Assembly: GCA_963770565.1 (NCBI GenBank) | Contig: CAVYQE010000002.1 | Coordinates: forward strand, 416,001-480,000 | Reading direction: 5' to 3' | From: an uncultured Actinomycetota bacterium | Lineage (GTDB): Bacteria > Actinomycetota > Actinomycetes > JAFAQI01 | Length of the DNA stretch: 64,000 nt | Shown: positions 35,025 through 55,072 of the stretch, one piece after another | How the letters are laid out: each line of letters begins with the position of its first letter | How positions within the stretch are numbered: position 1 is the stretch's first letter | The notes under the pieces: generated by a model | The model's input: only the letters and a program-made list of their open reading frames with translations | What the model was told of the DNA's origin: nothing | Databases searched by the model: none | Translations under genes and position numbers: made by a program

Positions 35025-35097
35025 GCCCTCGTAGCTCAGGGGATAGAGCAACCGCCTCCTAAGCGGTAGGTCACAGGTTCAAATCCTGTCGGGGGCA
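35025..35097 (+). tRNA. tRNA-Arg (anticodon CCT), CCA not encoded; casposon target
   Basis: GCCCTCGTAGCTCAGGGGATAGAGCAACCGCCTCCTAAGCGGTAGGTCACAGGTTCAAATCCTGTCGGGGGCA cloverleaf. Confidence 0.96.
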
Positions 35098-35109
35098 CTT
35101 CGTGCCGGT
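35095..35109 (+). repeat. Left 15-bp target-site duplication
   Basis: GCACTTCGTGCCGGT, identical to 54936-54950; includes the last 3 nt of the tRNA. Confidence 0.95.
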
Positions 35110-35167
35110 GGGAAGGGATGGGAAGGGCCAAAAGAAGGGCCACCCAAACGAACAACAGCCCCCGAAC
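35110..35167 (+). repeat. Left terminal inverted repeat (58 bp)
   Basis: GGGAAGGGATGGGAAGGGCCAAAAGAAGGGCCACCCAAACGAACAACAGCCCCCGAAC, exact reverse complement of 54878-54935. Confidence 0.96.
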
Positions 35168-35354
35168 ACCAGCGCCGGCAAAGGAAAAGCCAGCCACCGC
35201 CACAGCAACGACGCCACAACAGCAGCTCAGCCCACGCGTCCGAACGCGTACGACGTGCAGGCACTCGCGTTCGGGTTCTCGGCAACGGATTCGGCAGCGA
35301 GATCAGGACCGAGCGGGAGGTGCGATGACCTGCGCGAGCACGACCCGCTCATTG

Positions 35355-36530
35355 CTACATGAATTCGACAGCCGCGATTACGTCTCGGGCGGCGAACCTC
35401 CGCCCATACGCCCGGCCGGTCATCTCGGTAAGAACACCTATTTCTACGAGCCGGTCGATCACGCTCTTCGCGGTTGGTGCAGACACCCCGTATTGAGTTG
35501 AGATGAACGAGGCAGTGAGCACCGGCCAGTCGATCAGATCGGCGGCAACTCGGACGATCACACCGCTCCAGTGCCGCTCGTTCAATTGGTCTCGCACGCC
35601 TGCAAGCCATTCGATAAGGGACTGCGCGGACCGAACAAGACTCTCAGACTGTTCGCAGAGAGCTTGGCAGAAGAAGGTGACCCAAGGGTTCCAGTCCCCG
35701 GACTGACTAACCGCGAGAAGGTGCCCTTGGTACTCGTCACGACGCTTCAATAGCCAAGGCGAGATGGTGATCGCTGGCTCTGTCAGTACACCGTGCATGA
35801 GTAGCTCAAGAACAACAAGCAGCCGGCCGATACGCCCGTTGCCGTCCCCAAAGGGGTGCAGCGCCTCGAATTGGTAGTGCGCCATCGCACATCGAAGAGG
35901 AGGGGGTAGGGGGAGGTCTCGGTACAGCCAGTGCTGCCACTGGTCGAGACCGGACCGCAGACGGTCGTCTGGCGGAGGGGGGATGTAGCGCGCGTCATAG
36001 ACCGTGCAACCGCGCGGACCTATCAGCACCTGGTGCTCTCGCACCTTGCCAGGATCTCGGGGCGCCGTTCGTGACTCCCTTGCGAGAATCGCTTGCAGGT
36101 CCTCCAGGAGCCCGATTGTGATCGGTCGCCCCTCACGCATCCACGCGAAGGCTTGGTAGGCCATGCGCTCATACGCCCGAATCTCTGCAACTTCCGGCGA
36201 GGATGGCCGCGCTTGCGGAAGTCGCGCTTCGAGGACGTCGGCCAGTGCGCCATAGGTACCCTCAAGGGCCGAAGTGTCGACAGCTTCGCGCGCCAACGCG
36301 GGCGCTATGAGGATCTGAGGATTGGGTAGTGGCGTGCATGCCTGACGCAGGCCGCTGATCGCGCCCGCGGCCTGCGATACGGCGTTCCAGGTCTCGTTGC
36401 TGAGATCGACCTCGGTCGGAAGGGGATCTGGCAGGAAGGCGAAGTACGAGTATTCACGCAGGTACTCGTCGGTGCCCTGAATTGGTACCAGTTGTCCGAT
36501 TGGACTCTTCCCAAGAGCGTCGAGGTCCAT
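35355..36530 (-). CDS. Fic/DOC family protein with C-terminal wHTH
   Basis: HYQFEALHPFGDGNGRIGR canonical Fic motif; SALEG (inhibitory-like); C-terminal 'YGVSAPTAKSVIDRLVEIGVL'. Confidence 0.92.
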   Translation of the reverse strand: MDLDALGKSPIGQLVPIQGTDEYLREYSYFAFLPDPLPTEVDLSNETWNAVSQAAGAISGLRQACTPLPNPQILIAPALAREAVDTSALEGTYGALADVLEARLPQARPSSPEVAEIRAYERMAYQAFAWMREGRPITIGLLEDLQAILARESRTAPRDPGKVREHQVLIGPRGCTVYDARYIPPPPDDRLRSGLDQWQHWLYRDLPLPPPLRCAMAHYQFEALHPFGDGNGRIGRLLVVLELLMHGVLTEPAITISPWLLKRRDEYQGHLLAVSQSGDWNPWVTFFCQALCEQSESLVRSAQSLIEWLAGVRDQLNERHWSGVIVRVAADLIDWPVLTASFISTQYGVSAPTAKSVIDRLVEIGVLTEMTGRAYGRRFAARDVIAAVEFM

Positions 36531-36554
36531 GATCGAAAGAGTAACGCCCAAAGT

Positions 36555-36639
36555 CCTAACATCTCTGCACAAGATGTTAGGGACCCCCTTCCAATTCCAC
36601 CGGTGGAATTTAGGGGGAGCGGCCTAACCCTTAACATCT
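36555..36639. promoter_or_regulatory. Palindrome cluster upstream of fic
   Basis: CCTAACATCT-N7-AGATGTTAGG, perfect AATTCCACCGGTGGAATT, third TAACATCT copy. Confidence 0.5.
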
Positions 36640-36915
36640 GCCCCTTGCCTGTGCCCCGAATACGCCTTACGGCAGGGTGGCGCCGCGTGGCTACGCCTGC
36701 GGTCGGCGCGGCTCGTCCCGCTTGCCGTAGCCCGCTCAGCCGAGCGCACCGTCGTTGTCGAAGTACGCTGAGCAGCGCACCGCGGCCCCCTGTTTCAGCT
36801 GATCCAGACGACCACGCCAACAGCAACGAAACAGGCGACGAACACGCTGCTCCATCCGAGTGATCGAACGCGTGTGTGATTGCCAAGGGGTCAACCCCCG
36901 CTATACCTTGTAATC

Positions 36916-36965
36916 ACTGCTCCCCGCCGTCCGGACTTCGGTCCGCACTGGCGGGGCTTTATTTT
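36916..36965 (+). ncRNA. Candidate small structured RNA convergent with the NYN gene
   Basis: TTGCCA-N18-TACCTT promoter-like sequence, then CCCCGCC/GGCGGGG stem with CGGAC-TTCG-GTCCG hairpin and TTTATTTT tract. Confidence 0.35.
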
Positions 36966-37561
36966 GCGTAGCGAGTGCTGTCTTTCACCTTCATGTACGT
37001 GGGCATTGTGATCCAGATGCATGGGGCGCGCCGATTGCCCGTCGCTGCGATACACCGCTTGTAGTGGTTCGGGCCGTCCCAGCCGGCTGTCATCGGCCAG
37101 GGAAACGCGCGGCCGTGCAGGTCGAAGGCTGCATCGAGTGGCGGTTTCAGGTCTGTGTCGGTAGTGAAGATCACTCCAATGTCGTACTCGTCGTTGATCG
37201 CCATCATCACGAAATCGACCGCGAGCTGTACGTCTACGCTCTTCTCGCGTGGCGCGCCACCGTCGTCGTAGTGCAGCGGCTTGAGGATGACCTCGGTGCG
37301 GGTCGGATCTGCCCTTCGCAGCGCGGCCGTGTGCTTGCGCACCGCACCGTAGCCCTTGGGGTCCTGTTCGTTGCTTGGGAGTCCGCGGTAGATACGGACC
37401 TGCTTCAACTTCGCGTCGGGGATGCGGCTCACGATGTGTTCGGCCAGCGGGATGGGTCGTATCTGACCGCATTGGGACGGTGAGTCTTCAACATGAAACG
37501 ACTCGCGAGCGCCCTTATAGACGTTCTGCCAGTCAAGGAATACGACTACGCGCTTTGACAC
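36959..37561 (-). CDS. NYN-domain (PIN-like, LabA/DUF88) putative ribonuclease
   Basis: VFLDWQNV, EKSVDVQLAVD, FTTDTDLKP acidic motifs. Confidence 0.88.
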   Translation of the reverse strand: MSKRVVVFLDWQNVYKGARESFHVEDSPSQCGQIRPIPLAEHIVSRIPDAKLKQVRIYRGLPSNEQDPKGYGAVRKHTAALRRADPTRTEVILKPLHYDDGGAPREKSVDVQLAVDFVMMAINDEYDIGVIFTTDTDLKPPLDAAFDLHGRAFPWPMTAGWDGPNHYKRCIAATGNRRAPCIWITMPTYMKVKDSTRYAK

Positions 37562-37790
37562 ACCAAGATCATCGCACTAACCGATTGGGGTGTGTGGTCA
37601 TCCACTGCGCCTCCGGCGGCAAGGTCCAGACCACCGGCGGCGCCCCGCCAGACGTTATGGCATCGGATCGCCAATTGCGCTGACAGACATAGTCATGGGC
37701 GGTAAACAGGCACCGTCACGCACCGCTACCGAAAGGACGCGCCATAGCAAAGGTCGCCCCGTTTTGTCACGTCACACATCACCGGTTTGT

Positions 37791-39383
37791 TTATGGTTGT
37801 CGCAGTTTGACAGCGGTGAGCTTGGCAAGTGCCGCCCAGTGCGATGGGTGTGGCCGGGAGTGACCGGCTCGTATGCGGCTCGCGGAGCCCTTGCTGAGAC
37901 CGGTAGCGGCGACTATTTCAGCGAGTTTCACGCTCGCGAGTCCTGCATGGATTTCCGGCCATGTTGCGGGGTCGAACGCTCCGTCGCCGCCACCGTGCTC
38001 CCACGCCTTCTGCGCTCGTTTGCTTGCCGCGATCGCTCGCCCTCGCACGCTCCGCACGTGCTCGGAGTGGGCTGGATCGTCGGCCCGGCAGGACGGGCAC
38101 CGCACGTGGCGGGGGTTGGACACAGGCGCTCCGCATCCCGGGCAGGCGTAGAGCTGGGCTGCAGGCGACGGCCGCGAACGACGCACATGAACCTGAGCTC
38201 CTTTCCTTGCTCGGCCGGCCTTGTGGGCGGACCGGCTCAACACCGTAGGCACCTGAAGCGGGTCGGGAGCGTCGGCGCCGAGGCGACGCGCGATCTCCTC
38301 GGCGATGGGACTGCACACAGCACGTAGGGCGGGGAGAAGCGCCTTGGCGTAGTCGTGTGTCAGGGGTGCCAGAAGACGTATCTCACCGTCGGGTTGTTCG
38401 GCGAAGTCGGCCTTCCGGAACCGTCGGTCGGTACTGAGCGTCCAGACGGTTTCTTCGACGATCGCGCGGAGCGGCTCCATCAGGTCGAGCGCGAACGCGG
38501 GCCGGTTCGTCCGGTCGGCGTGGGCGAGGCCCATGGCTGGGTCGAGCCCGAGCGCGAGGGAGGCGATGGTGGCTTCGATCTCGGCGAGCCGGTATCCGTA
38601 GTTGAGCAGGGAGCAGGCGGGGGTGGCAGCATGCCGGTTGCTAGGTGCCTCATTGAGCGGGCTGGTGCGGGCGCCAAAGGCGGTCCAGTGCCCCGGGATG
38701 CGGGCCTTGTCCTTGGGGAGGAAGCCGAGGCGTAGCTCGTCGGCCCAGGCGGTCCAGTAATGCTCGGCAGCGTGCATCTCGATCACCATGAGCGCGGCTT
38801 GATCGGTCGCTGTGTCGAGGCTTGCGCCGAGTTCGTCGATGGCGGCGGCGCGGTCCTCGCGGTTGATCAAGTCACGGGTGATCCGTGCCTGGTCGCCAAG
38901 CCGCCGGTGGAGAAGTGTCCGGGTGATTTGTAGCCCGGTGTCGGTGTATGCGGCGAGGGCTTGGGCGCGTCGAAGTGCGCCGTGCCCGTAAAGCTGGGGC
39001 GCGCCAATCAGCAGGGGGTTGGCGGTCGGTCCGGCGACGATGAGTGCGGTGCCGAGATTGGCGCACCAGCCAGCCGCGTCGGTGGTCACAGTCCCGTGGC
39101 CGAGGATCAGGACCCGACGCACACCCCCGGCGGCGGCTTGGGCGCGGGTGATCCAACGGGTGCGTCGGTATTCGCCGATCCCGTCGATGACCTCCAGTGC
39201 GCCTTGTTGGACGCGAACCATGACGCCGTATCCGTCTCCGATCATGACCTCGCCGATCGTGTCGTCGGTGAAAGTGCGATGGGTGTTCTCGCGTCCGTCC
39301 TCGACGTCGTCGGCGGTGATGGCCCGCGGGTCAGGCGATCTCGGCGCTGTTGGTTGTTGGTGGGTAGCGTTTCGGGTTGCCAT
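37791..39383 (-). CDS. cas1: Casposase: stand-alone Cas1 with C-terminal Zn finger and XRE-like HTH
   Basis: IEMHAAEHYW (E), LLNYGY, LGLDPAMGLAH (H), FALDLMEPLR (D/E); CPGC...CPSC; LAEIVAATGLSKGSASRIRAG; no cas2 or CRISPR array nearby. Confidence 0.93.
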   Translation of the reverse strand: MATRNATHQQPTAPRSPDPRAITADDVEDGRENTHRTFTDDTIGEVMIGDGYGVMVRVQQGALEVIDGIGEYRRTRWITRAQAAAGGVRRVLILGHGTVTTDAAGWCANLGTALIVAGPTANPLLIGAPQLYGHGALRRAQALAAYTDTGLQITRTLLHRRLGDQARITRDLINREDRAAAIDELGASLDTATDQAALMVIEMHAAEHYWTAWADELRLGFLPKDKARIPGHWTAFGARTSPLNEAPSNRHAATPACSLLNYGYRLAEIEATIASLALGLDPAMGLAHADRTNRPAFALDLMEPLRAIVEETVWTLSTDRRFRKADFAEQPDGEIRLLAPLTHDYAKALLPALRAVCSPIAEEIARRLGADAPDPLQVPTVLSRSAHKAGRARKGAQVHVRRSRPSPAAQLYACPGCGAPVSNPRHVRCPSCRADDPAHSEHVRSVRGRAIAASKRAQKAWEHGGGDGAFDPATWPEIHAGLASVKLAEIVAATGLSKGSASRIRAGHSRPHPSHWAALAKLTAVKLRQP

Positions 39384-39448
39384 GGGAGGTCCTTTCTCCT
39401 GTGGTCAGCCCCGGCGGTGTTAGCCCACCGTCGGGGCGCTTGTCGTTG

Positions 39449-40324: not shown

Positions 40325-40337
40325 GCCACCACTTTAC

Positions 40338-40423
40338 GCGGCACCACGATGCGACCTACTAGCGGCACCACGAAAAGGGCGGCTGCATCGGCGCTGATCG
40401 GAAGCGGCACCATGAAAGGGGCG
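40338..40423 (+). repeat. Three direct repeats in the divergent control region
   Basis: GCGGCACCA(C/T)GA at 40338, 40362, 40404; copies 2 and 3 share 19 of 21 bp. Confidence 0.7.
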
Positions 40424-40448
40424 CCGAAGGCTTTCGCGCTGTATCCCG

Positions 40449-40673
40449 ATGGGCCATCGTGGGTTGGTGACGACGAGCACTGTGGTGGTGGCACTGCCGC
40501 CCGATTTGGTGGCCGCGGTGGACGCGGAGGCCCGTCGTCGGTTGCTGCGTCGTGGTGAGGTCTTGGCCGCCTTCCTCCGGGACGCCTGGCCGAGTTGGGT
40601 GCAGACCCAGCTTGAACGCGACCTCGCCAGAACACCGAACGCCAATCCAGCCGTCGACGAGACGGCGGACTGA
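40449..40673 (+). CDS. Ribbon-helix-helix (CopG-like) DNA-binding protein
   Basis: TVVVALPPDLVAAVDAEARRRLLRRGEVL beta-alpha-alpha pattern; first gene of the polB operon. Confidence 0.6.
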   Translation: MGHRGLVTTSTVVVALPPDLVAAVDAEARRRLLRRGEVLAAFLRDAWPSWVQTQLERDLARTPNANPAVDETAD

Positions 40674-40674
40674 G

Positions 40675-41193
40675 ATGCCGCGCCGAAAAACCCCCGGACC
40701 GTCGCCGCTGCGTGGTCGTACCACCTCGGCCGAGCGGGCAGCCAGGACGGCGCGGGAGCAAGCGAAGGCGCAGGCGGCAGGCTTCGGCTCAGCGTATGAG
40801 CAACGACTGGCCCGGGGTCGTGAGCGCGGATTGTCGCGATCGGTGGCGGGTGGGAAGCCGACGCCGCGTGAGGTGCCGCTGTCGAGTCAGCACCTGACCT
40901 TCTACTCAGTCCCGGTGCGCATCGGGTCGGGCACGGTGCTGGTGGATATCGAGACCCGGAACTTGCGTGGGGGGAGTGTGCTCGGCGCCTACCTGGCCGA
41001 CATCGGAGCGTTGCTGCGCGGGCGGCTGACCGCAGCGGAGTTCGAGGCACGGTGGCAGCGGCGGACGGTGGCCGGGCATCGGTTGGAGTCGCGGGCGGCG
41101 TTCGTGGTCGAGGCGATGCGCTCACGTGGCCCGCAGCCGGGTGAGCCGCGGTACCGCCGGGTGGCGGCCGGCGCCGGGGGTGGTTCCCGGTGA
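40675..41193 (+). CDS. Basic hypothetical protein of the polB operon
   Basis: Starts 1 nt after the RHH stop, GTGA overlap with the next gene; 'SAYEQRLARGRERGLSRS'. Confidence 0.6.
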   Translation: MPRRKTPGPSPLRGRTTSAERAARTAREQAKAQAAGFGSAYEQRLARGRERGLSRSVAGGKPTPREVPLSSQHLTFYSVPVRIGSGTVLVDIETRNLRGGSVLGAYLADIGALLRGRLTAAEFEARWQRRTVAGHRLESRAAFVVEAMRSRGPQPGEPRYRRVAAGAGGGSR

Positions 41194-41522
41194 TCGGCCG
41201 GTGCTCGCGTTGCGGCGTAATCGGTCCGATCGATCGGGATCACCCGTCGGGCCGGGACCACGACATTCCGTTGCACCCGGACTGGACGCTCCCGTTGTGC
41301 CGGGCGTGCTGTCACAAGCTGACGGGCCGGCTAGACCGCGGCGCGGGTGTGGAGGGCGGCGCACCGACAGTGCGACTGGTCGCGAGCCGGGTCGCTTCCC
41401 GGCTTGGCTGCTACGCGCTGACCGATGAACCGCTGGTGCTGGACCCGCAAGTGATCGCGACGTTCGCTCGTCTGGTCGCGGACGTGGCCCGGCGGGTGCC
41501 TGCGGACCTGGCGTGGGACTAG
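41190..41522 (+). CDS. HNH-like zinc-binding endonuclease
   Basis: CSRCG...DRDHPSG...TLPLCRACCHK (CxxC...DH...LCxxC-H). Confidence 0.65.
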   Translation: MIGRCSRCGVIGPIDRDHPSGRDHDIPLHPDWTLPLCRACCHKLTGRLDRGAGVEGGAPTVRLVASRVASRLGCYALTDEPLVLDPQVIATFARLVADVARRVPADLAWD

Positions 41523-41524
41523 CG

Positions 41525-44443
41525 GTGAGCGAGCTGTACCGGTTGCGGGTGCGCGGGCATGTCGATGCGTGCCCGAGACCGGCCGTCCGCGGGGAGCCGT
41601 GGGGGTGGGTGCGGGACACGCCGTGGCTGTTGCTGCATGTCCTCGCCGACGGGCGGGACCGTCCGCTGCTCGCGACCGCGCGCGACCTGCACGCGATCGT
41701 GTCTGAGAGCGGGGCGGGACGCGGGGTCGTTTGGTGTGCACGGCCGAGGACATCTACGCCACTGCGGACCGTCTCGACGGGCTGCGCGAGGCACTGCGGG
41801 GTGTGCTCCCGGATGTGCCTGCGGGCTTCGACGTCGAGGATCTGCGGGTCGAACCGTTGGCCCGGGTCGGGAAGCTGATCCGTGACTGTTCCTACCGGAA
41901 CCGGTGGCCGGTGATCGGCTGGGATCTGCCCTGGTTGTTCGGTCGGTGGGCTGAGCACGCCGGAAACGCCCAGGCCCGCGGCCGGGGTGGGTTCAGCCTG
42001 GTCCTGGCCGGGCTCGGCCGGTTCACTGACGGGACGTTCGTGGACGGCGTGGGAGGACAGCCCGGCGCTGCAGGTCATCCCCCGTCCGGGCGGGGACACC
42101 GGCGGGTTCTATCGGTGGGCGAACCCGAAGACCGACCGTTACCGCGGCAAGCACCCGGCCCGGTTCGTTGACCTGCGGGTCCTCGCGGGTGCGCTCGGCG
42201 GCGGGCAGGTTGAGACCCCGGCCGACGCCGCCCGCCTGTTCGACCTGACCTGGCCGGAGCCGTCCGACGACCCGGTGGCGCGGCTCCGCGCGGAAGCGGC
42301 CGCCTTAGGTGAGTTGGCGACCGCGTTGTTCCGTGCGATCGTCGCGGCGGCGCCTGGGTTGGACCCGGCCGCAGTCCAAAGCTTCGGCACCGATCGCCAC
42401 CCACCTGCTCGCAGAAGCGGGTGTCAGGCCACCGTTGGGCAAGACCCGCCGGCTGCCCCCGAATGATCTGGGCGATGCGGCGTCGGCGACGTTCGGTGGC
42501 CGGTTCGACGCTGCACTGGTTGGTGTCGCGCTCCCCGCGGTCCTGGTCGATATCAGCAAGACTTACGCGTCGCTGTTCGCGCTGCTCGGTCTGGACGGCG
42601 TGTACGGGTGTCGGGAGTTCCGCAGCGAACCCCGCGACCCGACCCTGATCGCGTCGCTGCTCACCGACCCGGCCGCGATCTGGCAAGCGGAGACCTGGGC
42701 CGAGCTGGGGTTGACGTTCGTCACGTTGCATCCGACCGGCCAACCATTGCCGTGCTCGGTGGAGCTTGCTCCGGGCCGGTGGCGGAGCATGGTCGCGCCG
42801 CTCGACCTGTCCGGCGGGAGTGCGACCTACCACTGGGCTGAGGTGCTCGCCGCGGTCGTGGCGGGCGCGGATCCCGCGAGCATTCAGATCGACCGGGTGT
42901 TCTCGATCCGGCCGGTCGGCACCCAACCCGACCTGACCCCGGTCCGGCTGGTCACCGGCCGCACCGTCGACCTCACCAGTGGCGAGCTCGGTGCGGCGCT
43001 GGTCACCGAAGCCACCCGCAGCGACCTCCCGCGGTGGCAGCGCAACCTGGCGCGGGCCACCGCGCAAGCCATCAGCTACGGGGTGCTGCTGCGGCACGAC
43101 CCGATCCCACGATCCGGCGAGACCAGCGCGGTCGGACCGGGCGGGCATCGGGTCACCGTCCGAGCCGCCAGGCCGGAGCGACCGGGACCGTTCACGTTCC
43201 TTCCCGCCGGTGCCGCGGTGTGCGCCGCCACCCGGCTGATCATCGCCTTGCTCACCGCCGAGCTACGAGCAGCCGGCAGCGCGGCGATGGCGATCCACGC
43301 CGACAGCGTCACGATCCCCTGCACCCCGACCGGCGAGAGTTTCCCGGTCGACGGCGCATCCGACGGACGCCTCCGCACCCTCACCCCCGGCCAGCTCGAC
43401 CAGCTGCTCGACGGGTTCGCGCCGCTCGGGATCACCTTCCGCACCGAGGTCGCCAACCCCGACGGTCGCACCCACGGGCTCGTGGTCGGGGTCAACAAGA
43501 CCGTCTTCGCCCAGCACCGCGCCGACCGGTCATGGCAGGTCGTGCGCAGCAGCGACACCGGGCTCGGGGGGAGCCTCGCCGACCCGTCCGACACCCCGGG
43601 CACCCGGACCCCGGACGGTCGGTGGCAATGGAGCGCCACCCTCGAAACCACGATGTTCCCCCGGGACGAGCCGGCTCCGCTGCCCGGATGGGTGGACCGG
43701 CCGGTGGTGCGCCGCTACACCGCCAACACCCCCGCCGTGCTGGCGCAGCTGAGGGACGAGCTCGCCGACCCGACCGTGATGCCGTTCGCCCGGTACCTGC
43801 GCGCCGAACCGCTGGTCGGCACCGGCGGGCCGGTCGCGCTCGGCCCCTGGCCCGACCCGGCCCGCTGGGCCGAGGCCGGCTGGCGGTTGCACGGCAAACC
43901 GGTCACCGACCCAGCCGGGTCCTGCCGGGCCCACCCGGCAGGGCTCGCCTACACCCTGACTCGGACGGTCAGCGACTACTTCACGGCGTGGGCCACACCG
44001 AACGATCCGAGCACCACCGGACCGGAGCGCGGCCTTCGCGACCCGGTCCCGATCCGATCCGCTCTTGGGCTGACCGTGGTCGTCGGCCGGGACTCCGCCG
44101 ACCTGCCGGACACCGAGCCCGACCCGGCGATGCCCAACCCCACCAGCCGCCTGGTGTACGGGCACACCGCCCAAGCCGAACTCCGGAACCGCATCCGCGA
44201 CATCGGGCCGCGCCGATTCAGTCAACAGTCCGGGATCGCGTGGTCGACCGTGTCGCAGTACGTCAACGACCGGCCCGGCAGCCCGCAGCTCACTCAACGG
44301 ATCGCGATCGCGCTCGCCCGTTACACCCCCACGCCACGCGCGACCCGCCTCGTGCCGTGCGGGCACTGCAACAAGCCACCAGCCGCCGAAGGTGGTGCTC
44401 GGACCGGTGCCGGATGGCCGCGACCCGAGCCGGTGCCGCGTGA
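41525..44443 (+). pseudogene. Divergent family B DNA polymerase with C-terminal HTH and Zn finger; about 4 frameshifts as assembled
   Basis: Stitching ORFs 41513/41731/41987/42309/43034 gives IGWDLPWLFGRW (ExoII-like), FVDLRVLA, ATFGGRFD, VDISKTYAS (motif A), RATAQAISYG (motif B), IHADS (motif C), VNKTVF, then HTH and CGHC...WCSDRC. Confidence 0.78.
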
Positions 44444-44892
44444 CCCGATCCCCCCGATCCCCGGCGCCACGGGTGTACGTGGCGCACCCGCTCAGCAGCT
44501 ACTCGACCCCGCACGCCACCACGACCCTGGCCGCGCTCCGCGTTGTGTTGCCGGGCGCAGAGATGGTCGACCCGGAGCACTGCGGTTGGGACGGCAACGA
44601 CGACTGGCGGCACGGCTGGCCAGACCTGCTCGGCACATTGACCGGGCTGGTCGTGTTCGCCGCGACCGACGGCACGATCGGGACCGGATGCCTCAACGAG
44701 ATCACCGACGCGATCACCGTCGGCCTTCCGGTCGCCGCCTACGACAAGCAGCTCGGGCTCGTCGAGCTCGCCGGATCCGCGCTCGTCCCCGCCGGTCAGC
44801 GCGACCCAGCCCGGGTGGCGTGGCTGGCATACGGGCCCCCGTTCGACCCGACAGCCTTCACGCGACGGGCCTGTTTGCGGGTGGCGCGGTGA
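44440..44892 (+). CDS. Nucleoside 2-deoxyribosyltransferase/N-hydrolase-like (NDT/DUF4406-type fold) protein
   Basis: RVYVAHPL ... IGTGCLNEITDAITVGLPV; GTGA overlap with the polB stop. Confidence 0.6.
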   Translation: MTRSPRSPAPRVYVAHPLSSYSTPHATTTLAALRVVLPGAEMVDPEHCGWDGNDDWRHGWPDLLGTLTGLVVFAATDGTIGTGCLNEITDAITVGLPVAAYDKQLGLVELAGSALVPAGQRDPARVAWLAYGPPFDPTAFTRRACLRVAR

Positions 44893-45455
44893 AGCGACCG
44901 GGGCGGCGGCTGCCCGCCACGGCGGCTCGCGACCCTGGCCGGACGGTGACGCCCCCCGGAATACTCGCCGCATTCGCCCCCCTCGCGGAGGCGGCACCGG
45001 GGCGGGTTCTCGACCGGGGCGCAAGAACGGCTAAGGGGCGACACCCCCAAAGGTGCCACAGAACTACGGGCACCGAATAGGAGCGGCATCGGGGGCAGAA
45101 CTGCGGCCCCGGGGCCTGCCCGAACGCCCGCGGAGAAGCCCCCGGAAACAATCCGTTGATCCGGTGTTGCGCCCCGTATGAGGCGGAAGGGACCCCGAAT
45201 TCGGCCCCCGCCCACTTATGCGCCCCGGGGCGTGAAACGGGGCGCCCCCTAATCCATACGGGGCAGAACACACCGCACCCCATCGACGAAGCACGAGTGC
45301 ACGAAGGAAGCGCCCCGGCGGCGGGGGTCGAGGCACGAGGGGGACGCAACCGGTCACCGCACGCCGCACCCTCTATAAATCCGCGGTAAACCCGCTGGCC
45401 ATCCAGGGCACCTGATTTGGCTGCAGGGTCGCGGTGGCCCCGTTAACCTCCGGCC

Positions 45456-46677: not shown

Positions 46678-47590
46678 GTGATGACCATGACCGAGCTGTC
46701 TTTGACGACGAGCGACGCGACGCGATTGGCGATGGCGGCGTTCCTGGCCCGCTACCGCGAACCGACCCTCACCGCTTACACGCAAGACCTCGGTCCTACT
46801 CGGCCTGGTGCACCAGCAGTACAACCGGCGAGGTGCTCCATGTCACCCGCGGCCGAGCTTGAGATGTACGTCCGGCAGATGGAGAGCCCGCGGGTACGCC
46901 GCCGCGACGATCGCTCGCCGCTTCGGCACCGTCGCCACCTTCTATAAGTACGCGGTCATCGACGGGCTCATCACGGCCAACCCGGCGGACGCCGTCACGC
47001 GCCCGAAGGATGGCATGGGAGGGGCAGAGGCGCACCGTGCTGCACCCGCTGGAGTTCGCGGCACTGCTGTCCGCTGCCCGCACGTCCAGCCCGAACGACC
47101 ACGCGCTTGTCTGTCTGCTCGGCATGCTTGGTCTGCGCGTCTCCGAAGCGTGCAACGCCGACATCACCGACATCCGGTACGAGTCCGGCTACGAGCTGCT
47201 GCACGTCATCGGCAAGGGCGCCAAGCCGGCCGACATCCCGCTGCCGATCCCGGTTCTGAGAGCGGTGCGGGAGGCGATCGATGGACGCGACGAGCGGACC
47301 GATCCTGCAGCACCCGGACCGGGCGGCGGATGGACCGGCCGGCGCCAGCAGGGCGCTCGTCCGGGTGGCCCGCGCCGCAGGCGATCAGCCACCAGATAAG
47401 CCCGCACGGCCTGCGGCGGACCTTCTGCACCACTGGCCTTGTCGCTGGCATCGCGATCAGAGACATGCAGTACGCGATGCGGCACGCGGACCCGCGTACG
47501 ACCCTGCGGTACGACATGGCCAAGGCCAACCTCGACCGCCACGCGGCGCATGCCGTCGCCGCCTACCTGGCCGGCATGAGCACCGGCTGA
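46678..47590 (+). pseudogene. Tyrosine recombinase/integrase (XerC/D-like), multiple frameshifts
   Basis: GLRVSEA (R), GKG (K), HGLRRT (H-x-x-R), HADPRTTLRY (H...Y) spread over several frames. Confidence 0.88.
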
Positions 47591-48798: not shown

Positions 48799-50151
48799 AT
48801 AGGTGATGCCATAACGGAGCGGGGCCTCCCGCTCCTGTGAGTACCGCAGGAGACTGCGGTTGCTCATAAACCCACATGGTGAGGGAGGCCACCAATGAGT
48901 GACGGTATCGCTAGGAAGAAGCAGTTCGTCGGCGTCGACCTGCATCTGCACCGGTCGGTGATCGTGCGGATCGACAACCGCGGTCGCGAGCTCGAGTGCG
49001 TGCGGATCGACAACTCTGTGTCCGGCCTTGTCGCTGAAGTGGCGAAGGCTGGGCAGGGTGCGCCGGTCGCGATCGAGGCGACATATGGCTGGTACTGGGC
49101 GGTCGACGCGTTGCAGGCGAAGGGTTTCGAGGTGCATCTCGCGCACCCGTACGGGATGAAGCAGATGCGGAAGCGGCGCCGGGTGAAGACTGACCATGCG
49201 GATGCGCTGGAGTTGGCGCGGCTGATGCGGCTTGGTTCACTGCCGGAGGCCTACATCGCCCCGGTCGAGCTTCGGGAGCTGCGGGAGCTGGTCCGCCACC
49301 GCCAGCAGCTGACGAAGGTCGCGACCTGCAACCAAGGGCGGGATCCGCGCCGGGTTGGCGAAGCACGGGATCCGTCTGCCGGTCAGCAAGCTGAACACGG
49401 TTGCTGGGTCGGATCTGCTCGATGAGCTACGGCTTCCGGGCTACTACGGGCAGCGGCTCGCCGCGCAACGCCGGATGATGATGCTCGTCGAAGACGAGCT
49501 GGCTCGGGTGGAGCGCGAGCTGGACCGTCGGTTGAAGACCGACCCGGACTACCGGCGGCTGCAGAGGATCAAAGGGATCGGTCCGATCCTCGCGGCGGTG
49601 TTCGTCGTCGAGATCGGTGATGTGAGCCGGTTCCGCAACGCGGCCGCGATCACCTGCTGGGCCGGGCTGACTCCACGGGTGCATGAGTCCGACCGGCGCC
49701 GACACGACGGCTCGATCAGCAAGGAAGGCTGCGCCCTGGTCCGGTGGGCCGCAGTCGAATCGGTGCAACGCCAATGCGAACCAGTCATCCGAGCCGTCCG
49801 GGACGACATCCTCGCCCGCCGCGGGAAGAGAGCGAAGAACACCGCGAAAGTCGCCGCCGCCAGGCGGATGCTCGAGGTCGTCTACTACACGCTGCGTGAC
49901 GGTGAGGCCCGTTGCCTGACCAAGCCGGTCGCCGCCGCGTGAACACCGTCAAGACTTCGTGCGGGTCGAAGTAGCGGCATGACCCACCCTCGGGTGCGGT
50001 CGACGAAGTGAATGACCCCACGACCCTGGAACCCAGGGACGCTCGCACGGCTTCATGCTGACCACCACGTCGCGAAGGGATGCCTGACAGCAAACTGGCT
50101 GTCGCCGAGCTCTGCCATTTCAAACTGAAGCCGAACCTGACAACCACATAG
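48799..50151 (+). mobile_element. IS110-family element (DEDD recombinase 48895-49942, frameshift near 49330)
   Basis: GVDLH, IEAT, KTDHADA (RuvC DEDD); GIGPI, WAGLTPRVHES; ends inferred from ATAG at 48799-48802 and 50148-50151. Confidence 0.85.
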
Positions 50152-50372: not shown

Positions 50373-51636
50373 TTACGAGGCGGGTCGCAGGATGGCGAGG
50401 CCGACGGGGCTGGCGTCGCAGTGGCAGCTGGGCGCGAAGGTGCCGATGATAATGAGTCCCTGTCGTGTCCATACGTCGTCGTACAGTCGAGTGAGGTGGC
50501 GGAGTCGCGGTGCGGGGTACCACGTGCGGCTTGCCGGGTCGTAGGCGGCGACGGCGCCTTCGGCGTCAGGGCCGAAGTCTTGACCACCGAAGCCTTCGCC
50601 GCCCTGGATGCCACTGATCACGCGTCCAGTGACGAGGGCGCTGGCCATGTCGCGACGAACGGTGTCATGTGCAGCGTGGTGGTCCTCGTGGTGCCGAGCC
50701 GGATGAGCTGTGGGTCCGGGTCGATGCCAATCCCGCAGAAGGAGCCGAGCGGGCAGTCCTGGCCAGCGATGAGCTGCTGAGGCCCGAAGCTCTGAGCCGT
50801 GTCGACGGTGACCGGGAGTGTCGGCTGGGGCTGTCTTTCCCAGCGGTCGCCGTCGAGGCGGTAGAGGTGCGCGGTCTCATGCCCGCTGGGATCGTTCGCG
50901 GTCAGGAACGCCCAGATGGAGGTGCCCTGCACGTAAGCGGCGGCGGAGCCAGATACGGAAGGCTGGGCAGCCGGGTCCAGGTCGAGCCGTCGACCCGCAT
51001 CGCCTGGCTGTCGTTCATGACAACCGCAAGCTGCGAGTCGGCGACCACGAGTGCGCCTTTGAGAATCTCGGGCGGGTCGAGCATGGTCCACCGGTTCGTG
51101 GCGGGGTTCAGCTCCGCGTCGTGTCCCCAGTCGTCGATGATGATTGCTCGCGAGCCGGTCCACGCTGCCTGCCAGCCGCCGTCGAGACGCAGCTGGGACG
51201 GCGGTGCCGCGAGCCGCCGCCACTGGCCGGTCTGCAGGTCGTAGAGCGCGACGCCGTCCTGACAGGTCTTCGGCCCGTCGGACAGGACGGCCAGAACGCC
51301 GAAGCTGGTCGACAGCACCTGTGAGATGCACTGCGCGATCGACGTCGGAACCGGGGTGACCTTCGACCAACTCCCGTCAGCGATCTGCTGCGCTGACGGT
51401 CCGGTCAGCCGGGCGGCTGGCACGGTCGGCTTCGCTGCGCTGAACGAGCCTGCGATGTCGACCGCGGCGAGCAAGACGAGTGCAACCAAGGCCGCTGACA
51501 GCACGACCGTGACGGACCGACGAGTCCGGCGCTGGCTGGCAGCGCGGTCGAGCATCTCCCGAACCGGCGCCGGCCCAACCGGGAAGCTCGCGCGCCGCTG
51601 GAGCGCATCGCGCAGCACGGCGAGGGAGTCACTCAT
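50373..51636 (-). pseudogene. Membrane-anchored Kelch/beta-propeller-like protein (probable partner of the adjacent ECF sigma), 2 frameshifts
   Basis: MSDSLAV...TM...YDLQTGQWRRLA, AAWTGSRAII, LNPATNRW, AYDPASRTW across three ORFs. Confidence 0.6.
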
Positions 51637-52123
51637 CGCCGACCTCCATCTCATCGCGTGCCTGATCGACCCGAAGCGCGACAAGCGCACGGTGCGCCCG
51701 CGACTTCACCGTCCCAACCGAACACCGCAGCATTCTCGCGATCTCCGCCTCGCTGCAGTCGCAGTAATAACGAAGCACCACCACCGCCCGCTGCTCCGGC
51801 GGAAGCGCGGACAACGCCCGCTCGAGCACCATCGCCGACTCGACCCCGAGCGCTGCATCCGGCGTTGAACGCTCCGGCATCGATAGCGTCGGCACCTCAC
51901 CACGCCACCTGCGCTGCCCGGCCCGCAGCGCGAGCCTGCTCATCACCGTGCGGGTATAGGCGAGCGGGTCGTCCACCGAGGACCACCGGCGGTAGGTCTT
52001 CAACAGCGCAACCTGCGCGAGGTCCTCACCCGCCGCAGGGTCGGGCGCGAGCAGCCGCCCGGTCCGCACCAGCGCGGCCCACGACGACTCCACAAACCGC
52101 GTGAAGTCCTCGTCGTGGCCCAC
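51629..52123 (-). CDS. ECF sigma factor (SigE-like)
   Basis: EDLAQVALLKTYRRW...LPPEQRAVVVLRYY.D.SEAEIA...SVGTVKSR. Confidence 0.9.
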   Translation of the reverse strand: MGHDEDFTRFVESSWAALVRTGRLLAPDPAAGEDLAQVALLKTYRRWSSVDDPLAYTRTVMSRLALRAGQRRWRGEVPTLSMPERSTPDAALGVESAMVLERALSALPPEQRAVVVLRYYCDCSEAEIARMLRCSVGTVKSRAHRALVALRVDQARDEMEVGDE

Positions 52124-52653
52124 ACCTAATAAGAGCACCGATGGCCCGAAGAAGGTTCCCCAAGACACAGTCCTTCTGCAACGGACTGCGGTCACGACCG
52201 ACCGCCGAGTAAGTGCCGCTACCGTCGGGCACCATCCCTGCCGTTCGGATCGGGGCCGCTAGGTGGAAATGAGGTCAGTAGCGCGTTCCAAACCCCGCCG
52301 CAACCTAATCGGCTCGGCCACCGGCATGGACCATACTGCGTCGAACTGTCGGCAAGTCGCGCAATGGGGATCCGCGCCGCCGTCATGTTCACCGCGGTGA
52401 GCTCGTCCACCGGCCATTGCGAGGTCGAACAGCGCGTCGATGGCTTGCCAGGTCACTCCGTCGCCCTGCACCACAAGGCCGTCTCTCGACCCGAAGTCGT
52501 CGTCCGCCTCGAGAATCCGAGCGGCGTTTTAACGCGCGGCATGCGTGGGTCTCGCGCCCGGTCCGTCCACCAAGAGCATCACGCGCGGCAAGCAACGCGT
52601 CCGATGCGTTGCCTTTGCGGAGGTTCTGCAGTCTGAGATAGCGGGACGGCATG

Positions 52654-53536: not shown

Positions 53537-54877
53537 TGAATCGCCCTGGGTTGCTTGGAGGCTCCAGACCTTGGAAACGAGGATGGAGTCATGGGGAACG
53601 AAGGCACACCGGGAAGCCGACTACGCGTCGGTACTCACCGGAGGAGAAGGCGCAGGCGGTCCGGTTGGTGCGTCAGCTGCGCAAGGAGCTCGGGCACCGA
53701 GCACGGGACGGTCCAGCGGGTCGCCGAGCAGCTCGGCTCGGGGTGGAGTCGTTGCGGTCTGGGTGAAGCAGGCCGAGATCGATGACGGTCGAGCCGGGCA
53801 CGACGACCGTCGGAGGCGAAGCGGATCAAGGAGCTCGAGCAGGAGAACCGGAGCTGCGGCGGGCGAACGCGATCTCTGAAGTCGGCGTCGGCTTTTTTCG
53901 CGGCGGAGCTCGACCGCCCACAGAGGTGATGGTCGCGTTACATCGACGAGCACCGCGACGAGTTCGGAGTCGAGCCCATCTGCCGCACGTTGCAGGTGGC
54001 TCCGAGCACGTACTACGCGGCGAAGTCCCGGCCGCGTCGTCGGCGCGGGCGGTGCGCGACGCGGTGATGATGCAGGTCCTGATGGTGTTGTGGGTCGCGA
54101 ACCGCAAGGTCTACGGGGCACACAAGCTCTGGAAAGCGGCCCGCGGGCCGGCCATGACATCGGCCGGGATCAGGTCGCCCGACTGATGCGTGAACTGGCC
54201 ATCGAGGGCGTCTCCCGACGCCGCAAGAAGGTGTTCACCACCCGGGCCGATCCCGACGCGATCCGAGCGCCGGATCTCGTCAACCGGAACTTCACCGCCG
54301 ACCGGCCCGACGCGTTGTGGGTCACCGACCTGACCTATGTGCCGACCCGGTCGGGGATGGCGTACGTGTGTTTCATCGTCGACGCGTTCACCCGCCGCAT
54401 CGTTGGCTGGCGGGTCGCGTCGAACATGCGCACCGCGATGGTCCTGGACGCGCTCGAGATGGCCCGCGACGATCCCGCGGCGGGAAACGATTCGTCGGGC
54501 TCGTGACCCATTCCGATGCCGGCGTCGCAATTCACGTCGGTGCGGTTCACGGAGCGACTCGACGAGATCGGCGCACGCCCATCGATCGGCACCGTCGCCG
54601 ATTCGTACGACAACGCGCTGGCTGAGACGACCAACGGGCTCTACAAGACCGAGTGCGTCTACGGACCCGACACCAACGGCTGGGACGACGTCGACGAACT
54701 CGAACTCGCGACGCTGTCATGGGTGCACTGGTTCAACGACGACCGCCTCCACAGCCACTGCAACGACATGCCACCCGCAGAGTTCGAAGACAGCGTTCTA
54801 CGCTGCGCTCGACAGACCGACCAGCGAGGCGGTTGGAATCCAATAACCCGAGCCTCCATCAGACCCAGGGCGATTCA
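53537..54877 (+). mobile_element. IS3-family insertion sequence (orfA/orfB, many indels), 1341 bp
   Basis: TG...CA ends; IRs TGAATCGCCCTGGGT...GGAGGCTC; 3-bp TSD GTT (53534-36, 54878-80); DDE motifs WVTDLTY, HSDAG, DNALAET. Confidence 0.93.
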
Positions 54878-54935
54878 GTTCGGGGGCTGTTGTTCGTTTG
54901 GGTGGCCCTTCTTTTGGCCCTTCCCATCCCTTCCC
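54878..54935 (-). repeat. Right terminal inverted repeat (58 bp)
   Basis: Exact reverse complement of 35110-35167. Confidence 0.96.
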
Positions 54936-54950
54936 GCACTTCGTGCCGGT
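54936..54950 (+). repeat. Right 15-bp target-site duplication
   Basis: GCACTTCGTGCCGGT. Confidence 0.95.
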
Positions 54951-55072
54951 GGGAAGGGATGGGAAGACAGAAACCCCAACACCAGCCACCGACGGAGCAA
55001 GGCCCGGAGCCGGCCTCCCAACCCCTGGCATAGGCACCCCTACAACGGAGCCCCACGCGTCCAGAACGGTGG
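54951..55072 (+). mobile_element. End of a second, related casposon-like element (other end not in window)
   Basis: Starts with the same 16-bp terminus GGGAAGGGATGGGAAG; 55049-55072 matches the reverse complement of 53439-53462 at 23/24 nt. Confidence 0.72.

What the first reader, a model, noticed from the sequence alone, without database searches (positions are those of the whole stretch)
37791..39383. Casposase with a C-terminal C4 zinc finger and an XRE-like HTH
Seen: an intact 530-aa ORF whose Cas1 core is followed by a basic linker, CPGC-x12-CPSC and a terminal HTH (LAEIVAATGLSKGSASRIRAG). There is also a ~40-aa N-terminal extension. Established: archaeal casposases carry a C-terminal HTH; CRISPR Cas1 instead uses Cas2 and host factors. 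Inference: the extra domains may read the GAAGGG sub-repeats of the TIR or the tRNA target. That makes this a candidate single-protein, site-specific integrase for large cargo in high-GC hosts.
Basis: partly seen in the sequence, partly recalled or inferred. Interest (0 to 1): 0.75.

Follow-up and report, generated by a model that had tools for sequence, protein, structure and literature searches.

The report
Bacterial casposon integrase with zinc-ribbon/HTH tail
The gene encodes the Cas1-type integrase of a 19.8-kb transposon (a casposon) inserted beside a tRNA-Arg gene; its zinc-ribbon plus helix-turn-helix tail is real and conserved, but this architecture was already described for bacterial casposons in 2014.

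Summary
Window 37791-39383 (minus strand) is an intact 530-aa Cas1 homologue (Pfam Cas_Cas1, E 3.7e-35). Its catalytic residues E202, H288, D300 and E303 are invariant in the family.

It is the casposase of a TIR-bounded element, 35110-54935. The TIRs are 67 nt, and a perfect 15-bp target duplication starts 4 nt inside the 3' end of tRNA-Arg(CCT). A further TIR terminus abuts the right duplication.

Relatives in Acidimicrobiaceae, Acidobacteriota and other soil bacteria carry the same core: Cas1, a roughly 1000-aa PolB, an HNH-like gene and an HTH-like gene. Most have 14-bp duplications. PolB ends in an HTH homologous to the casposase HTH.

In this copy PolB is split over three frames with altered motifs, and IS elements have invaded, so the element looks partly decayed.

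Cas1 with a C-terminal zinc-binding domain and HTH was published for the family 3 casposon AceAut-C1 in 2014. Earlier notes of this scan describe the same family on other genomes. What the tail binds is untested. The tRNA-end targeting with a 15-bp duplication in this Acidimicrobiia-like clade is the modestly new point.

Verdict: new member of a known kind, interest 0.35.

The parts
35025..35098 (+). tRNA-Arg (anticodon CCT), the integration target; left intact by the insertion
   Evidence: ARAGORN; sequence
35095..35109 (.). Left copy of the 15-bp target-site duplication; overlaps the last 4 nt of the tRNA
   Evidence: Direct repeat D11; exact 15-mer found only at 35095 and 54936 with 0 mismatches
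35110..35176 (+). Left terminal inverted repeat (67 nt, 94% complementary to the right one; first 58 nt identical); starts GGGAAGGGATGGGAAGGG
   Evidence: Inverted repeat I1
35355..36572 (-). Cargo: Fic/DOC-family protein
   Evidence: Pfam Fic_N E 1.3e-13, Fic E 1.8e-13
36959..37561 (-). Cargo: NYN-domain protein
   Evidence: Pfam NYN E 1.5e-8
37791..39383 (-). Casposase (P0001, 530 aa)
39249..39383 (-). Casposase residues 1-45: N-terminal extension, disordered 1-22 plus helix 24-39
   Evidence: AF2 model; alignment A1
38370..39149 (-). Casposase residues 79-338: Cas1 domain with E202, H288, D300, E303
38145..38273 (-). Casposase residues 371-413: basic, mostly low-confidence linker (8 K/R, 2 D/E)
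38088..38144 (-). Casposase residues 414-432: CxxC-x11-CxxC zinc ribbon
37815..37970 (-). Casposase residues 472-523: XRE-like helix-turn-helix domain
40552..41193 (+). Probable equivalent of the conserved ~170-aa HTH-like core gene (weak match)
   Evidence: cluster HMM against frame 40471-41190, E 0.001; cluster present in 22 of 24 elements
41190..41522 (+). HNH-like small protein, conserved core gene
   Evidence: cluster HMM E 5.3e-8; a relative hits Pfam HNH at E 0.012, below cut-off
41707..45080 (+). Family B DNA polymerase, divergent and split over three reading frames (41707-42168, 41915-42463, 42309-45077); C-terminal HTH kept; the last ~250 codons of the long frame are not homologous to PolB
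   Evidence: profile search of the frames; motif table
44392..44892 (+). 166-aa ORF of unknown function, with relatives in 5 other loci
   Evidence: tblastn; no Pfam family
46808..47590 (+). Tyrosine recombinase remnant split over two frames (also 47010-47399)
   Evidence: Pfam Phage_integrase on both ORFs
48895..49942 (+). IS110-family transposase split into two overlapping ORFs
   Evidence: Pfam DEDD_Tnp_IS110 and Transposase_20
50902..52195 (-). Cargo: ECF sigma factor (51629-52195) and a Kelch-motif protein (50902-51690)
53537..54877 (.). IS3-family insertion (39-nt imperfect inverted ends, rve-domain ORFs) lying just inside the right TIR
   Evidence: inverted repeat I3; Pfam rve, rve_3
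54869..54935 (-). Right terminal inverted repeat
54936..54950 (.). Right copy of the 15-bp target-site duplication
54951..54966 (+). Third copy of the first 16 nt of the TIR, abutting the duplication: remnant of a tandem neighbour
   Evidence: (3 matches; 0 of 100 shuffles reach 3)

Best explanation
P0001 is the casposase, a Cas1-family integrase, of a bacterial casposon of the AceAut-C1-like (family 3-like) kind.

Inferred mechanism, by analogy with characterised casposases: casposase oligomers hold the 3'-OH ends of the two TIRs and attack the two target strands 15 bp apart, immediately at the 3' end of tRNA-Arg(CCT). Gap repair then gives the 15-bp duplication. Repeated use of the tRNA-proximal copy of the site builds tandem arrays, and the 16-nt TIR stub after the right duplication is the trace of such an array.

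The C-terminal zinc ribbon plus XRE-like HTH is a built-in double-stranded-DNA-binding module. Because a homologous HTH also ends the element's PolB, my preferred reading is that it binds the element's own (sub)terminal DNA. I put about 0.55 of the weight on that, about 0.3 on recognition of the leader or tRNA side of the target, and the rest on regulation.

Shown here: identity, domain architecture, catalytic residues, element boundaries, the family-wide gene set and the duplications. Inferred: oligomeric state, chemistry, the role of the tail, and whether this copy is still mobile. This copy looks partly decayed, with a split PolB carrying altered motifs and with nested IS elements.
For: Cas1 identity and active site.

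Fold: the AF2 model (pLDDT 83) has as its best Foldseek hit the M. mazei casposase 6opm (E 8.5e-14), followed by CRISPR Cas1 chains.

Element boundaries: 67-nt TIRs, a perfect 15-bp TSD, and tRNA-Arg. The TIR occurs nowhere else in the 4.43-Mb assembly.

No CRISPR context: the genome's only Cas2 match is on another contig, beside a second Cas1 that is 35% identical. There are no tandem repeats in 30-60 kb.

Family:
- 127 tblastn-confirmed loci among 328 pattern matches in the species-representative genomes.
- Of 29 TIR pairs examined, window included, 24 have a TSD. In the 23 relatives, 16 are exactly 14 bp.
- Core genes in 24 bounded elements: PolB 24, Cas1 24, HTH-like 22, HNH-like 15. The window has equivalents.
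- The PolB consensus shows ExoI-III and motifs A, B, C and KxY. Pfam PF03175 matches 5 of 8 below cut-off.

Tail:
- Four Cys invariant in 27 of 27.
- HTH_31 matched by 14 of 27 and HTH_3 by 9 of 27.
- The C4 motif is in 65 of 80 loci with 8-16 spacing. It has 17-18 spacing in 8 of 9 of the rest that were re-examined.
- The casposase HTH is homologous to the PolB C-terminal HTH (hhalign probability 95.3%, E 2.2e-8).

Independent replicate of the anatomy: in an Acidimicrobiaceae MAG, two elements lie in tandem at tRNA-Ile with an identical 15-nt TSD.

Literature: deleting the HTH of the M. mazei casposase abolishes integration, and its TSD is 14 bp (PMC6977970, passages).
Against: No experiment or DNA-binding prediction was possible, so the role of the tail is inference.

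The fold matches of the C-terminal model are all above E 0.001. The best is MqsA 3gn5 at E 0.08, and the XRE HTHs fall at E 0.1-0.8.

A test for co-evolution of the casposase HTH and the PolB HTH within elements was weak. The mean within-element score was 37.9 against 33.7, permutation p about 0.02, and the partner ranked first in only 1 of 18 rows.

TIR sub-repeats are marginal in the window and absent in most relatives.

Family 3 membership could not be tested by phylogeny, because no reference casposase sequences were available.

The PolB family's only Pfam likeness is to the protein-primed/organellar type PF03175. Family 3 PolBs are described as RNA-primed type.

Family 3 elements were reported as intergenic, not tRNA-linked (PMC4779613).

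The PolB of this copy is split over three frames and has motif C DTD changed to HAD, motif B K changed to R and N to Q, and the ExoII Asp lost. The element may therefore be immobile.

Public read data gave only depth-2 contigs and no information on excision.
Confidence: 0.85

Rival explanations
1. The element is a dead relic. The casposase ORF is still open, but the casposon can no longer move or copy itself, so the protein has no current function.
For: PolB is split over three frames with altered catalytic motifs. An IS3-family element lies just inside the right TIR. An IS110 transposase and a tyrosine recombinase are each split over two frames. There is only one copy in the genome.
Against: The casposase has all catalytic and zinc-binding residues. 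The TSD is perfect and the outer 58 nt of the TIRs are identical. Relatives of the same clade, including Illumina-based MAGs, also show a divergent PolB split in a similar place, so the split may be a clade feature rather than decay. Integration needs only the casposase and the ends.
Confidence: 0.35
2. The zinc-ribbon/HTH tail is mainly a transcriptional autoregulator (an MqsA-like repressor module), not part of the integration machinery.
For: The best fold match of the tail model is MqsA, a zinc-ribbon plus XRE-HTH repressor/antitoxin (E 0.08, probability 0.80). XRE HTHs are typical repressor domains.
Against: The fold match is not significant. In the M. mazei casposase the HTH is required for integration in vitro (PMC6977970). 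A homologous HTH is also fused to PolB, which points to a shared DNA site on the element rather than a promoter of one gene.
Confidence: 0.1
3. The island was integrated at the tRNA gene by the tyrosine recombinase it carries, and Cas1 is only cargo.
For: A tyrosine recombinase remnant lies at 46808-47590. tRNA genes are classic targets of such integrases.
Against: The flanking repeat is 15 bp and overlaps the tRNA by only 4 nt. It is directly bounded by 67-nt TIRs, which tyrosine-recombinase islands lack. Of the 23 relatives with a TSD, 16 have exactly 14 bp, and none of the four gene clusters shared by 15 or more of the 24 elements is a recombinase. A relative repeats the TIR/15-nt TSD/tRNA anatomy. 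The recombinase gene is itself broken.
Confidence: 0.04
4. It is a CRISPR adaptation Cas1 or an inactive 'Cas1-solo group 1' protein.
For: Sources name relatives 'CRISPR-associated endonuclease Cas1'. By sequence, the best solved hits are CRISPR Cas1 chains.
Against: There is no Cas2 or array in the window. The genome's Cas2 sits beside a different Cas1 on another contig. The four catalytic residues are invariant, whereas group 1 proteins lack the full set (PMC4046053, passage). The TIR/TSD/PolB context also argues against it.
Confidence: 0.02

Closest known systems
[quoted passage not shown] 2014, PMC4046053; passages read)
   Same: It is a bacterial casposon. The Cas1 domain is followed by a zinc-binding domain and an HTH, both C-terminal. 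The element also carries PolB, an HNH endonuclease and an HTH protein.
   Different: It was not compared by sequence here, because no reference sequence was available. Family 3 PolBs are described as RNA-primed type, whereas this family's PolB only resembles PF03175, below cut-off. Published family 3 elements are intergenic (PMC4779613), whereas this one sits at a tRNA 3' end. The window protein also has a ~42-aa N-terminal extension.
Family 2 casposases (Methanosarcina mazei, PDB 6opm; Aciduliprofundum boonei)
   Same: 6opm is the best structural match. These casposases have a C-terminal HTH that is essential in vitro, with a similar HTH on PolB. They insert at tRNA 3' ends with a 14-bp TSD, and tandem arrays share a TSD (PMC6977970, PMC4779613, PMC9939771).
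   Different: They are archaeal and have no zinc ribbon. Identity in the structural alignment is only 17-19%. By sequence the match covers only residues 258-337 (E 5.9e-6).
CRISPR-associated Cas1 (e.g. 7cr6, 7mi4, 4n06)
   Same: Same fold and same E/H/D/E active site.
   Different: Here there is no Cas2 partner and no array. There is an extra tail and an N-terminal extension, and the substrate is a 19.8-kb element bounded by TIRs.
MqsA antitoxin (PDB 3gn5)
   Same: Same order of domains: a CxxC...CxxC zinc ribbon followed by an XRE-type HTH. It is the best fold match of the tail model.
   Different: The match is not significant (E 0.08). In MqsA the zinc domain binds a toxin. There is no sequence relationship, so the resemblance is a lead only.

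Membership tests
Casposons (superfamily) | Cas1-family integrase with the full catalytic set | tested here: met
   PF01867 E 3.7e-35. E202, H288, D300 and E303 are invariant and align to the Cas1 motif.
Casposons (superfamily) | Terminal inverted repeats flanked by a target-site duplication of about 14-15 bp | tested here: met
   67-nt TIRs and a 15-bp TSD in the window. TSDs found in 23 of 28 relatives' TIR pairs.
Casposons (superfamily) | Family B DNA polymerase gene inside the element | tested here: inconclusive
   Relatives carry a ~1000-aa PolB with all motifs. The window copy is homologous (E 3e-55) but split over three frames with altered motifs.
Casposons (superfamily) | Not linked to a CRISPR array or cas2 | tested here: met
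Family 3 (bacterial) casposons | Casposase falls in the family 3 clade of the Cas1 tree | not testable with these tools
   No reference family 1-4 casposase sequences could be fetched, and the supplements of PMC4046053 are closed.
Family 3 (bacterial) casposons | HNH endonuclease and conserved HTH protein beside PolB | tested here: met
   Clusters are present in 15 and 22 of 24 elements. Pfam HNH E 0.012 and HTH_7 E 0.0046, both below cut-off. Window equivalents at E 5.3e-8 and 0.001.
Family 3 (bacterial) casposons | RNA-primed-type PolB (PF00136-like), nested in family 2 PolBs | tested here: inconclusive
   The only match is PF03175 below cut-off, in 5 of 8. Atlas clusters carry PF03175 on 12-36% of members. 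There is no sequence hit to any solved polymerase.
Family 3 (bacterial) casposons | Insertion in intergenic regions (PMC4779613) | tested here: not met
   The window TSD overlaps the 3' end of tRNA-Arg. A relative sits at tRNA-Ile. The Acidobacteriota relatives do use non-tRNA sites.
Family 2 casposons | Archaeal (Euryarchaeota) hosts; casposase with C-terminal HTH only | tested here: not met
   Relatives are bacterial MAGs, and a zinc ribbon precedes the HTH.
Cas1-solo group 1 | Incomplete catalytic residue set (PMC4046053) | tested here: not met
   All four residues are present and invariant.
XRE-type HTH domain | Sequence or fold match to lambda-repressor-like HTH | tested here: inconclusive
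   HTH_31 matched by 14 of 27 and HTH_3 by 9 of 27 members, with best E values 1.1e-5 and 5.4e-5. Fold hits are all XRE proteins, but at E 0.1-0.8.

The most novel reading that the evidence does not exclude
The Acidimicrobiia-like clade to which this protein belongs is a distinct lineage of bacterial casposons. It has switched to tRNA 3' ends as targets, with a 15-bp rather than 14-bp duplication, and it builds tandem arrays there. Its PolB would be degenerating (exonuclease motifs lost, gene split), so the element would be moving toward casposase-only transposition of large cargo.
Probability: 0.15. Interest if true: 0.6.

Novelty: new member of a known kind. Interest (0 to 1): 0.35.

Why it matters
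Casposases are the transposases from which CRISPR spacer integrases are thought to derive, and only three archaeal ones have been studied biochemically (PMC9939771, passage).

This protein belongs to a large bacterial family. Its tail profile finds 4518 cluster representatives at E up to 1e-3 and 205 at E up to 1e-30. The relatives that carry a source name are annotated simply as CRISPR Cas1.

A bacterial, high-GC, tRNA-targeting member with defined ends and a defined target gives a concrete substrate set for asking what the HTH and the zinc ribbon recognise. That question was left open for the M. mazei enzyme.

As an observation it is not surprising to a specialist, because the domain architecture and the shared PolB/Cas1 HTH are in print.

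Tried and rejected
1. Public reads. One run held 0.40 of the sampled words. Only depth-2 contigs covered the casposase region, with 0-1 differences. No contig bridged an empty site, and the listed joints have 19-31 letters on the shorter side. This gives nothing on excision or on the PolB frameshifts. A single contig from another run shows one extra C behind 42214 at depth 2.8, which may be an error or a relative. No RNA holder was listed.

2. Co-evolution of the casposase HTH and the PolB HTH within elements. The result was weak: p about 0.02, with the diagonal ranked first in 1 of 18 rows. It is not used as support.

3. TIR sub-repeat test. For the window, 6.4% of shuffles reach the observed repeat. 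Only 1 of the 19 relatives (L026) is clearly repetitive. Two rows (L038, L042) used imperfectly copied strings and are disregarded.

4. PolB profile against solved structures. No polymerase hit was found, only weak HTH hits to its C-terminus.

5. Second homology search with a broader alignment. It returned the same 35 proteins, so no named reference casposase was reached.

6. The 2017 casposon review (PMC5665730) is not held. Its family definitions are taken second-hand from PMC6614799 and PMC9939771.

7. Extending the TIR across the IS3 insertion. Beyond about 60 nt, only 10-14 of 20 columns match, so there is no longer TIR.

8. Toil-like, Cas1-encoding prophage reading (PMC5894146). It is not supported: none of the four gene clusters shared by 15 or more of the 24 elements is a capsid or packaging gene.

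9. Pfam found nothing for ORFs 39785-40558, 40552-41193, 41190-41522, 44392-44892, 45456-45911 and several others.

10. Literature searches. 'casposon' plus 'Acidobacteria' gave 2 papers, neither describing such elements. 'casposons' plus 'Acidimicrobiia' gave 0. Supplementary tables of the casposon papers could not be seen and may list related elements.
Full report
OBSERVATION

The ORF at 37791-39383 lies on the minus strand, starts at ATG and encodes 530 aa. Only seven sense codons lie upstream in the stop-to-stop frame.

Pfam Cas_Cas1 matches residues 79-338 at E 3.7e-35. NCBIfam TIGR00287 scores 93.4 bits against a cut-off of 71.7.

phmmer against solved structures aligns GLAHADRTNRPAFALDLMEPLR to the H...D..E motif of the Cas1 chains 7cr6 and 7mi4. 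In a 20-sequence alignment (20 of the 35 database hits), E202, H288, D300 and E303 are invariant. The same holds in a broader 26-sequence alignment.

The linker, residues 371-413, has 8 K/R and 2 D/E. The zinc motif is C414xxC417-x11-C429xxC432, not x12.

An AlphaFold2 model built on the family alignment has mean pLDDT 83. It shows a disordered 1-22, a helix 24-39, the Cas1 fold, a low-confidence linker (387-403) and a helical C-terminal domain. Its best Foldseek match in the PDB is the Methanosarcina mazei casposase 6opm (E 8.5e-14), followed by CRISPR Cas1 chains.

THE TAIL

A 27-sequence alignment of the last ~125-150 residues keeps all four Cys invariant, together with G507, P511 and W516.

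Scanned one by one against Pfam, 14 of 27 members match HTH_31, 9 match HTH_3, 13 match DZR_2 and 12 match DZR. All window matches are below the curated cut-offs.

A separate model of residues 405-530 has pLDDT 88.8: a two-strand zinc knuckle, a long helix and a four-helix HTH bundle. Its fold matches are MqsA (zinc ribbon plus XRE HTH, E 0.08) and then only XRE-family HTH proteins at E 0.1-0.8. None reaches E 0.001.

'XRE-like HTH after a C4 zinc ribbon' is therefore a fair description, supported by consistency rather than by any single significant match.

The C4 motif with 8-16 residues between the pairs is present in 65 of 80 related loci. Of the 15 others, I re-examined nine. Eight have CxxC-x17/18-CxxC, and one (L040) has a broken ORF. 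Six were not re-examined.

A profile of the tail finds 4518 cluster representatives at E up to 1e-3, 2327 at 1e-10 and 205 at 1e-30 among 1.84 billion. Many are short and match at their C-terminus, probably fragments from short contigs.

THE ELEMENT

A tRNA-Arg(CCT) gene lies at 35025-35098. From 35095, a 15-nt sequence is repeated exactly at 54936.

Between the two copies lie 67-nt inverted repeats, 35110-35176 and 54869-54935. They are 94% complementary and their outer 58 nt are identical. The element is 19,826 bp.

Directly after the right duplication, the first 16 nt of the TIR occur a third time. There are 3 matches in the window, and 0 of 100 shuffles reach 3.

The TIR occurs nowhere else in the 4.43-Mb, 11-contig assembly.

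The only other Cas1 in the genome is 35% identical and sits on another contig, next to the genome's only Cas2 match. No tandem repeat array lies within 30-60 kb.

Genes inside the element:
- Fic and NYN proteins.
- The casposase.
- A weak equivalent of a conserved HTH-like gene (40552-41193).
- An HNH-like gene (41190-41522, E 5.3e-8 to the relatives' cluster).
- A PolB homologue.
- A 166-aa ORF conserved in 5 loci.
- A tyrosine recombinase and an IS110 transposase, each split over two frames.
- An ECF sigma factor with a Kelch-motif neighbour.
- An IS3-family insertion (53537-54877) just inside the right TIR.

THE POLYMERASE

The 923-codon frame 42309-45080 has no Pfam match. It does have relatives in 23 of 81 loci at E up to 1e-6, always near the Cas1 gene.

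In most relatives the protein is about 1000 aa. An alignment of 20 gives a consensus with ExoI (DTET), ExoII (NLPFD), ExoIII (YxxxD), motif A (DFxSMYP), motif B (KxLANxxSYG), motif C (CDTDS) and KRY.

Pfam DNA_pol_B_2 matches 5 of 8 below its cut-off. PHROG DNA-polymerase families match weakly. Atlas clusters of about 1000-aa bacterial proteins carry PF03175 on 12-36% of members.

In the window:
- The polymerase half is in one frame (E 3e-55).
- The ExoII region and the following stretch lie in two other frames. ExoI was not found.
- Motif C reads HAD in place of DTD, motif B has R for K and Q for N, and the ExoII Asp is lost.

Other members of the same clade also show degenerate exonuclease motifs, NTD/HTD/STD variants of motif C, and a split at a similar place. 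An Illumina-based MAG (L016) is among them. I therefore cannot tell decay from a clade-specific divergent polymerase.

The PolB C-terminus carries an HTH homologous to the casposase HTH (hhalign probability 95.3%, E 2.2e-8, 55 columns).

RELATIVES

Word-indexed search of 5.8 billion proteins gave 35 hits at 30-61% identity. The named ones are 'CRISPR-associated endonuclease Cas1' of Acidimicrobiales MAGs.

In the species-representative genomes, 127 of 328 pattern matches were confirmed, and the best 80 were kept. They are Acidimicrobiaceae, many Acidobacteriota, Solirubrobacterales, Nocardioidaceae, Propionibacteriales and Thermomicrobiales, with several copies in some genomes.

Self-comparison of the loci gave TIR candidates. 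Of 29 pairs examined, window included, 24 have a flanking duplication. Among the 23 relatives, 16 are exactly 14 bp, and the other 7 are 14-20 bp depending on where the G-rich TIR boundary is set.

In 20 of these 23, the duplication begins GTCAA or ends TTGAC. The window's does not.

Several relatives have another TIR terminus directly abutting the duplication, as the window does.

Clustering the ORFs of 24 bounded elements gives four shared genes: PolB in 24, Cas1 in 24, a ~170-aa HTH-like protein in 22 and a ~117-aa HNH-like protein in 15. No capsid, packaging or recombinase gene is among these four shared clusters.

tRNA TARGETING

tRNA genes lie in 7 of the 60 loci scanned.

In the window and four relatives (L040 tRNA-Arg CCT, L025 tRNA-Gln, L021 tRNA-Ile, L005 tRNA-Val), a GGG(A/G)-initiated purine-rich terminus starts 10-16 nt after the tRNA 3' end.

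For L005, L025 and L040 only this end lies within the fetched DNA.

For L021, the second TIR (25 of 25 identical) was found in the overlapping locus L072. The same 15-nt duplication occurs at both ends, and the TIR of a second, tandem element abuts it.

This repeats the window's anatomy in an independent genome.

COMPARISON WITH WHAT IS KNOWN

Krupovic et al. 2014 (PMC4046053, passages read) describe family 3 bacterial casposons. [quoted passage not shown] Three of the four elements carry HNH and a conserved HTH protein.

Family 2 casposases have a C-terminal HTH, and a highly similar HTH is fused to PolB (PMC9939771, passage).

Bacterial casposons were reported as intergenic, and tandem arrays sharing a TSD were reported in Methanosarcina (PMC4779613, passages).

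The M. mazei casposase makes 14-bp duplications and is inactive without its HTH. Its authors suggest the HTH reads sequence upstream of the target but could not show DNA binding (PMC6977970, passages).

The window protein therefore fits a published architecture. Earlier notes of this scan reached the same reading on other genomes. I treat those as leads. The points I rechecked myself are the conserved tail, the shared HTH and the TTGAC-type duplications.

What I did not find in print is this family in Acidimicrobiia or Acidobacteriota, or tRNA-end targeting by bacterial casposons. Supplements were closed and the 2017 review is not held.

MECHANISM AND ODDS

I hold at 0.85 that this is a casposase acting as described under Best explanation.

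For the tail, I favour binding of the element's own subterminal DNA, at about 0.55. The reasons are that PolB carries the same HTH and that the TIR termini keep a common GGGR start across clades whose targets differ.

Leader/target reading gets about 0.3, and regulation gets the rest.

The co-evolution and sub-repeat tests that might have strengthened this were weak.

Whether this copy is still mobile is open, and I put about 0.35 on it being a relic.

VERDICT

The feature is real and correctly recognised. It is a new member of a known kind. Interest is 0.35.

Noticed in passing
L026, L033, L035, L037-L039, L042, L044, L048, L050, L052, L055, L056, L060, L061, L066, L073-L075, L077 (element ends listed): In 20 of 23 related elements with a duplication, the ~14-bp target duplication begins GTCAA or ends TTGAC. 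This suggests a short sequence-specific target motif that resembles a promoter -35 hexamer. Many of these sites also carry a further TIR terminus, indicating tandem arrays.
   Followed up: partly
L072:17238-17302 with L021:20780-20895: Two casposons lie in tandem at tRNA-Ile in one Acidimicrobiaceae MAG, separated only by a shared 15-nt duplication.
   Followed up: yes
L003, L004, L005, L016 (PolB regions) and window 41707-45080: In this clade the PolB is repeatedly encoded in two or more overlapping frames, with exonuclease motifs lost and motif C varying (DTDG, STDA, HTDS, NTDS, HADS). This could be a split or exonuclease-less polymerase lineage, or repeated decay.
   Followed up: partly
window 53537-54877: An IS3-family insertion sequence with 39-nt imperfect inverted ends (TG...CA) is inserted immediately inside the right TIR of the casposon.
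   Followed up: partly
window 46808-47590 and 48895-49942: A tyrosine recombinase and an IS110-family transposase are each split over two overlapping frames inside the element.
   Followed up: no
window 35355-37561: Fic/DOC and NYN-domain genes lie next to the casposase at the left end. They may be a defence or toxin-antitoxin-type cargo.
   Followed up: no
window 44392-44892: A 166-aa ORF with high third-position GC and no Pfam family. It is conserved (42-48% identity) near PolB in 5 related loci.
   Followed up: partly
window 60856-61951: Five to six diverged copies of a ~94-108-nt unit at 156-174-nt spacing (one 336-nt step spans two units), 61-73% identical. This is probably a repeat-domain protein gene outside the element.
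   Followed up: no
window 55049-55072 vs 53439-53462 and 35213-35244: A 24-32-nt subterminal motif of the casposon left end recurs about 100 nt after the stub TIR at 54951. This is consistent with a ~125-nt remnant of a second element's left end.
   Followed up: partly
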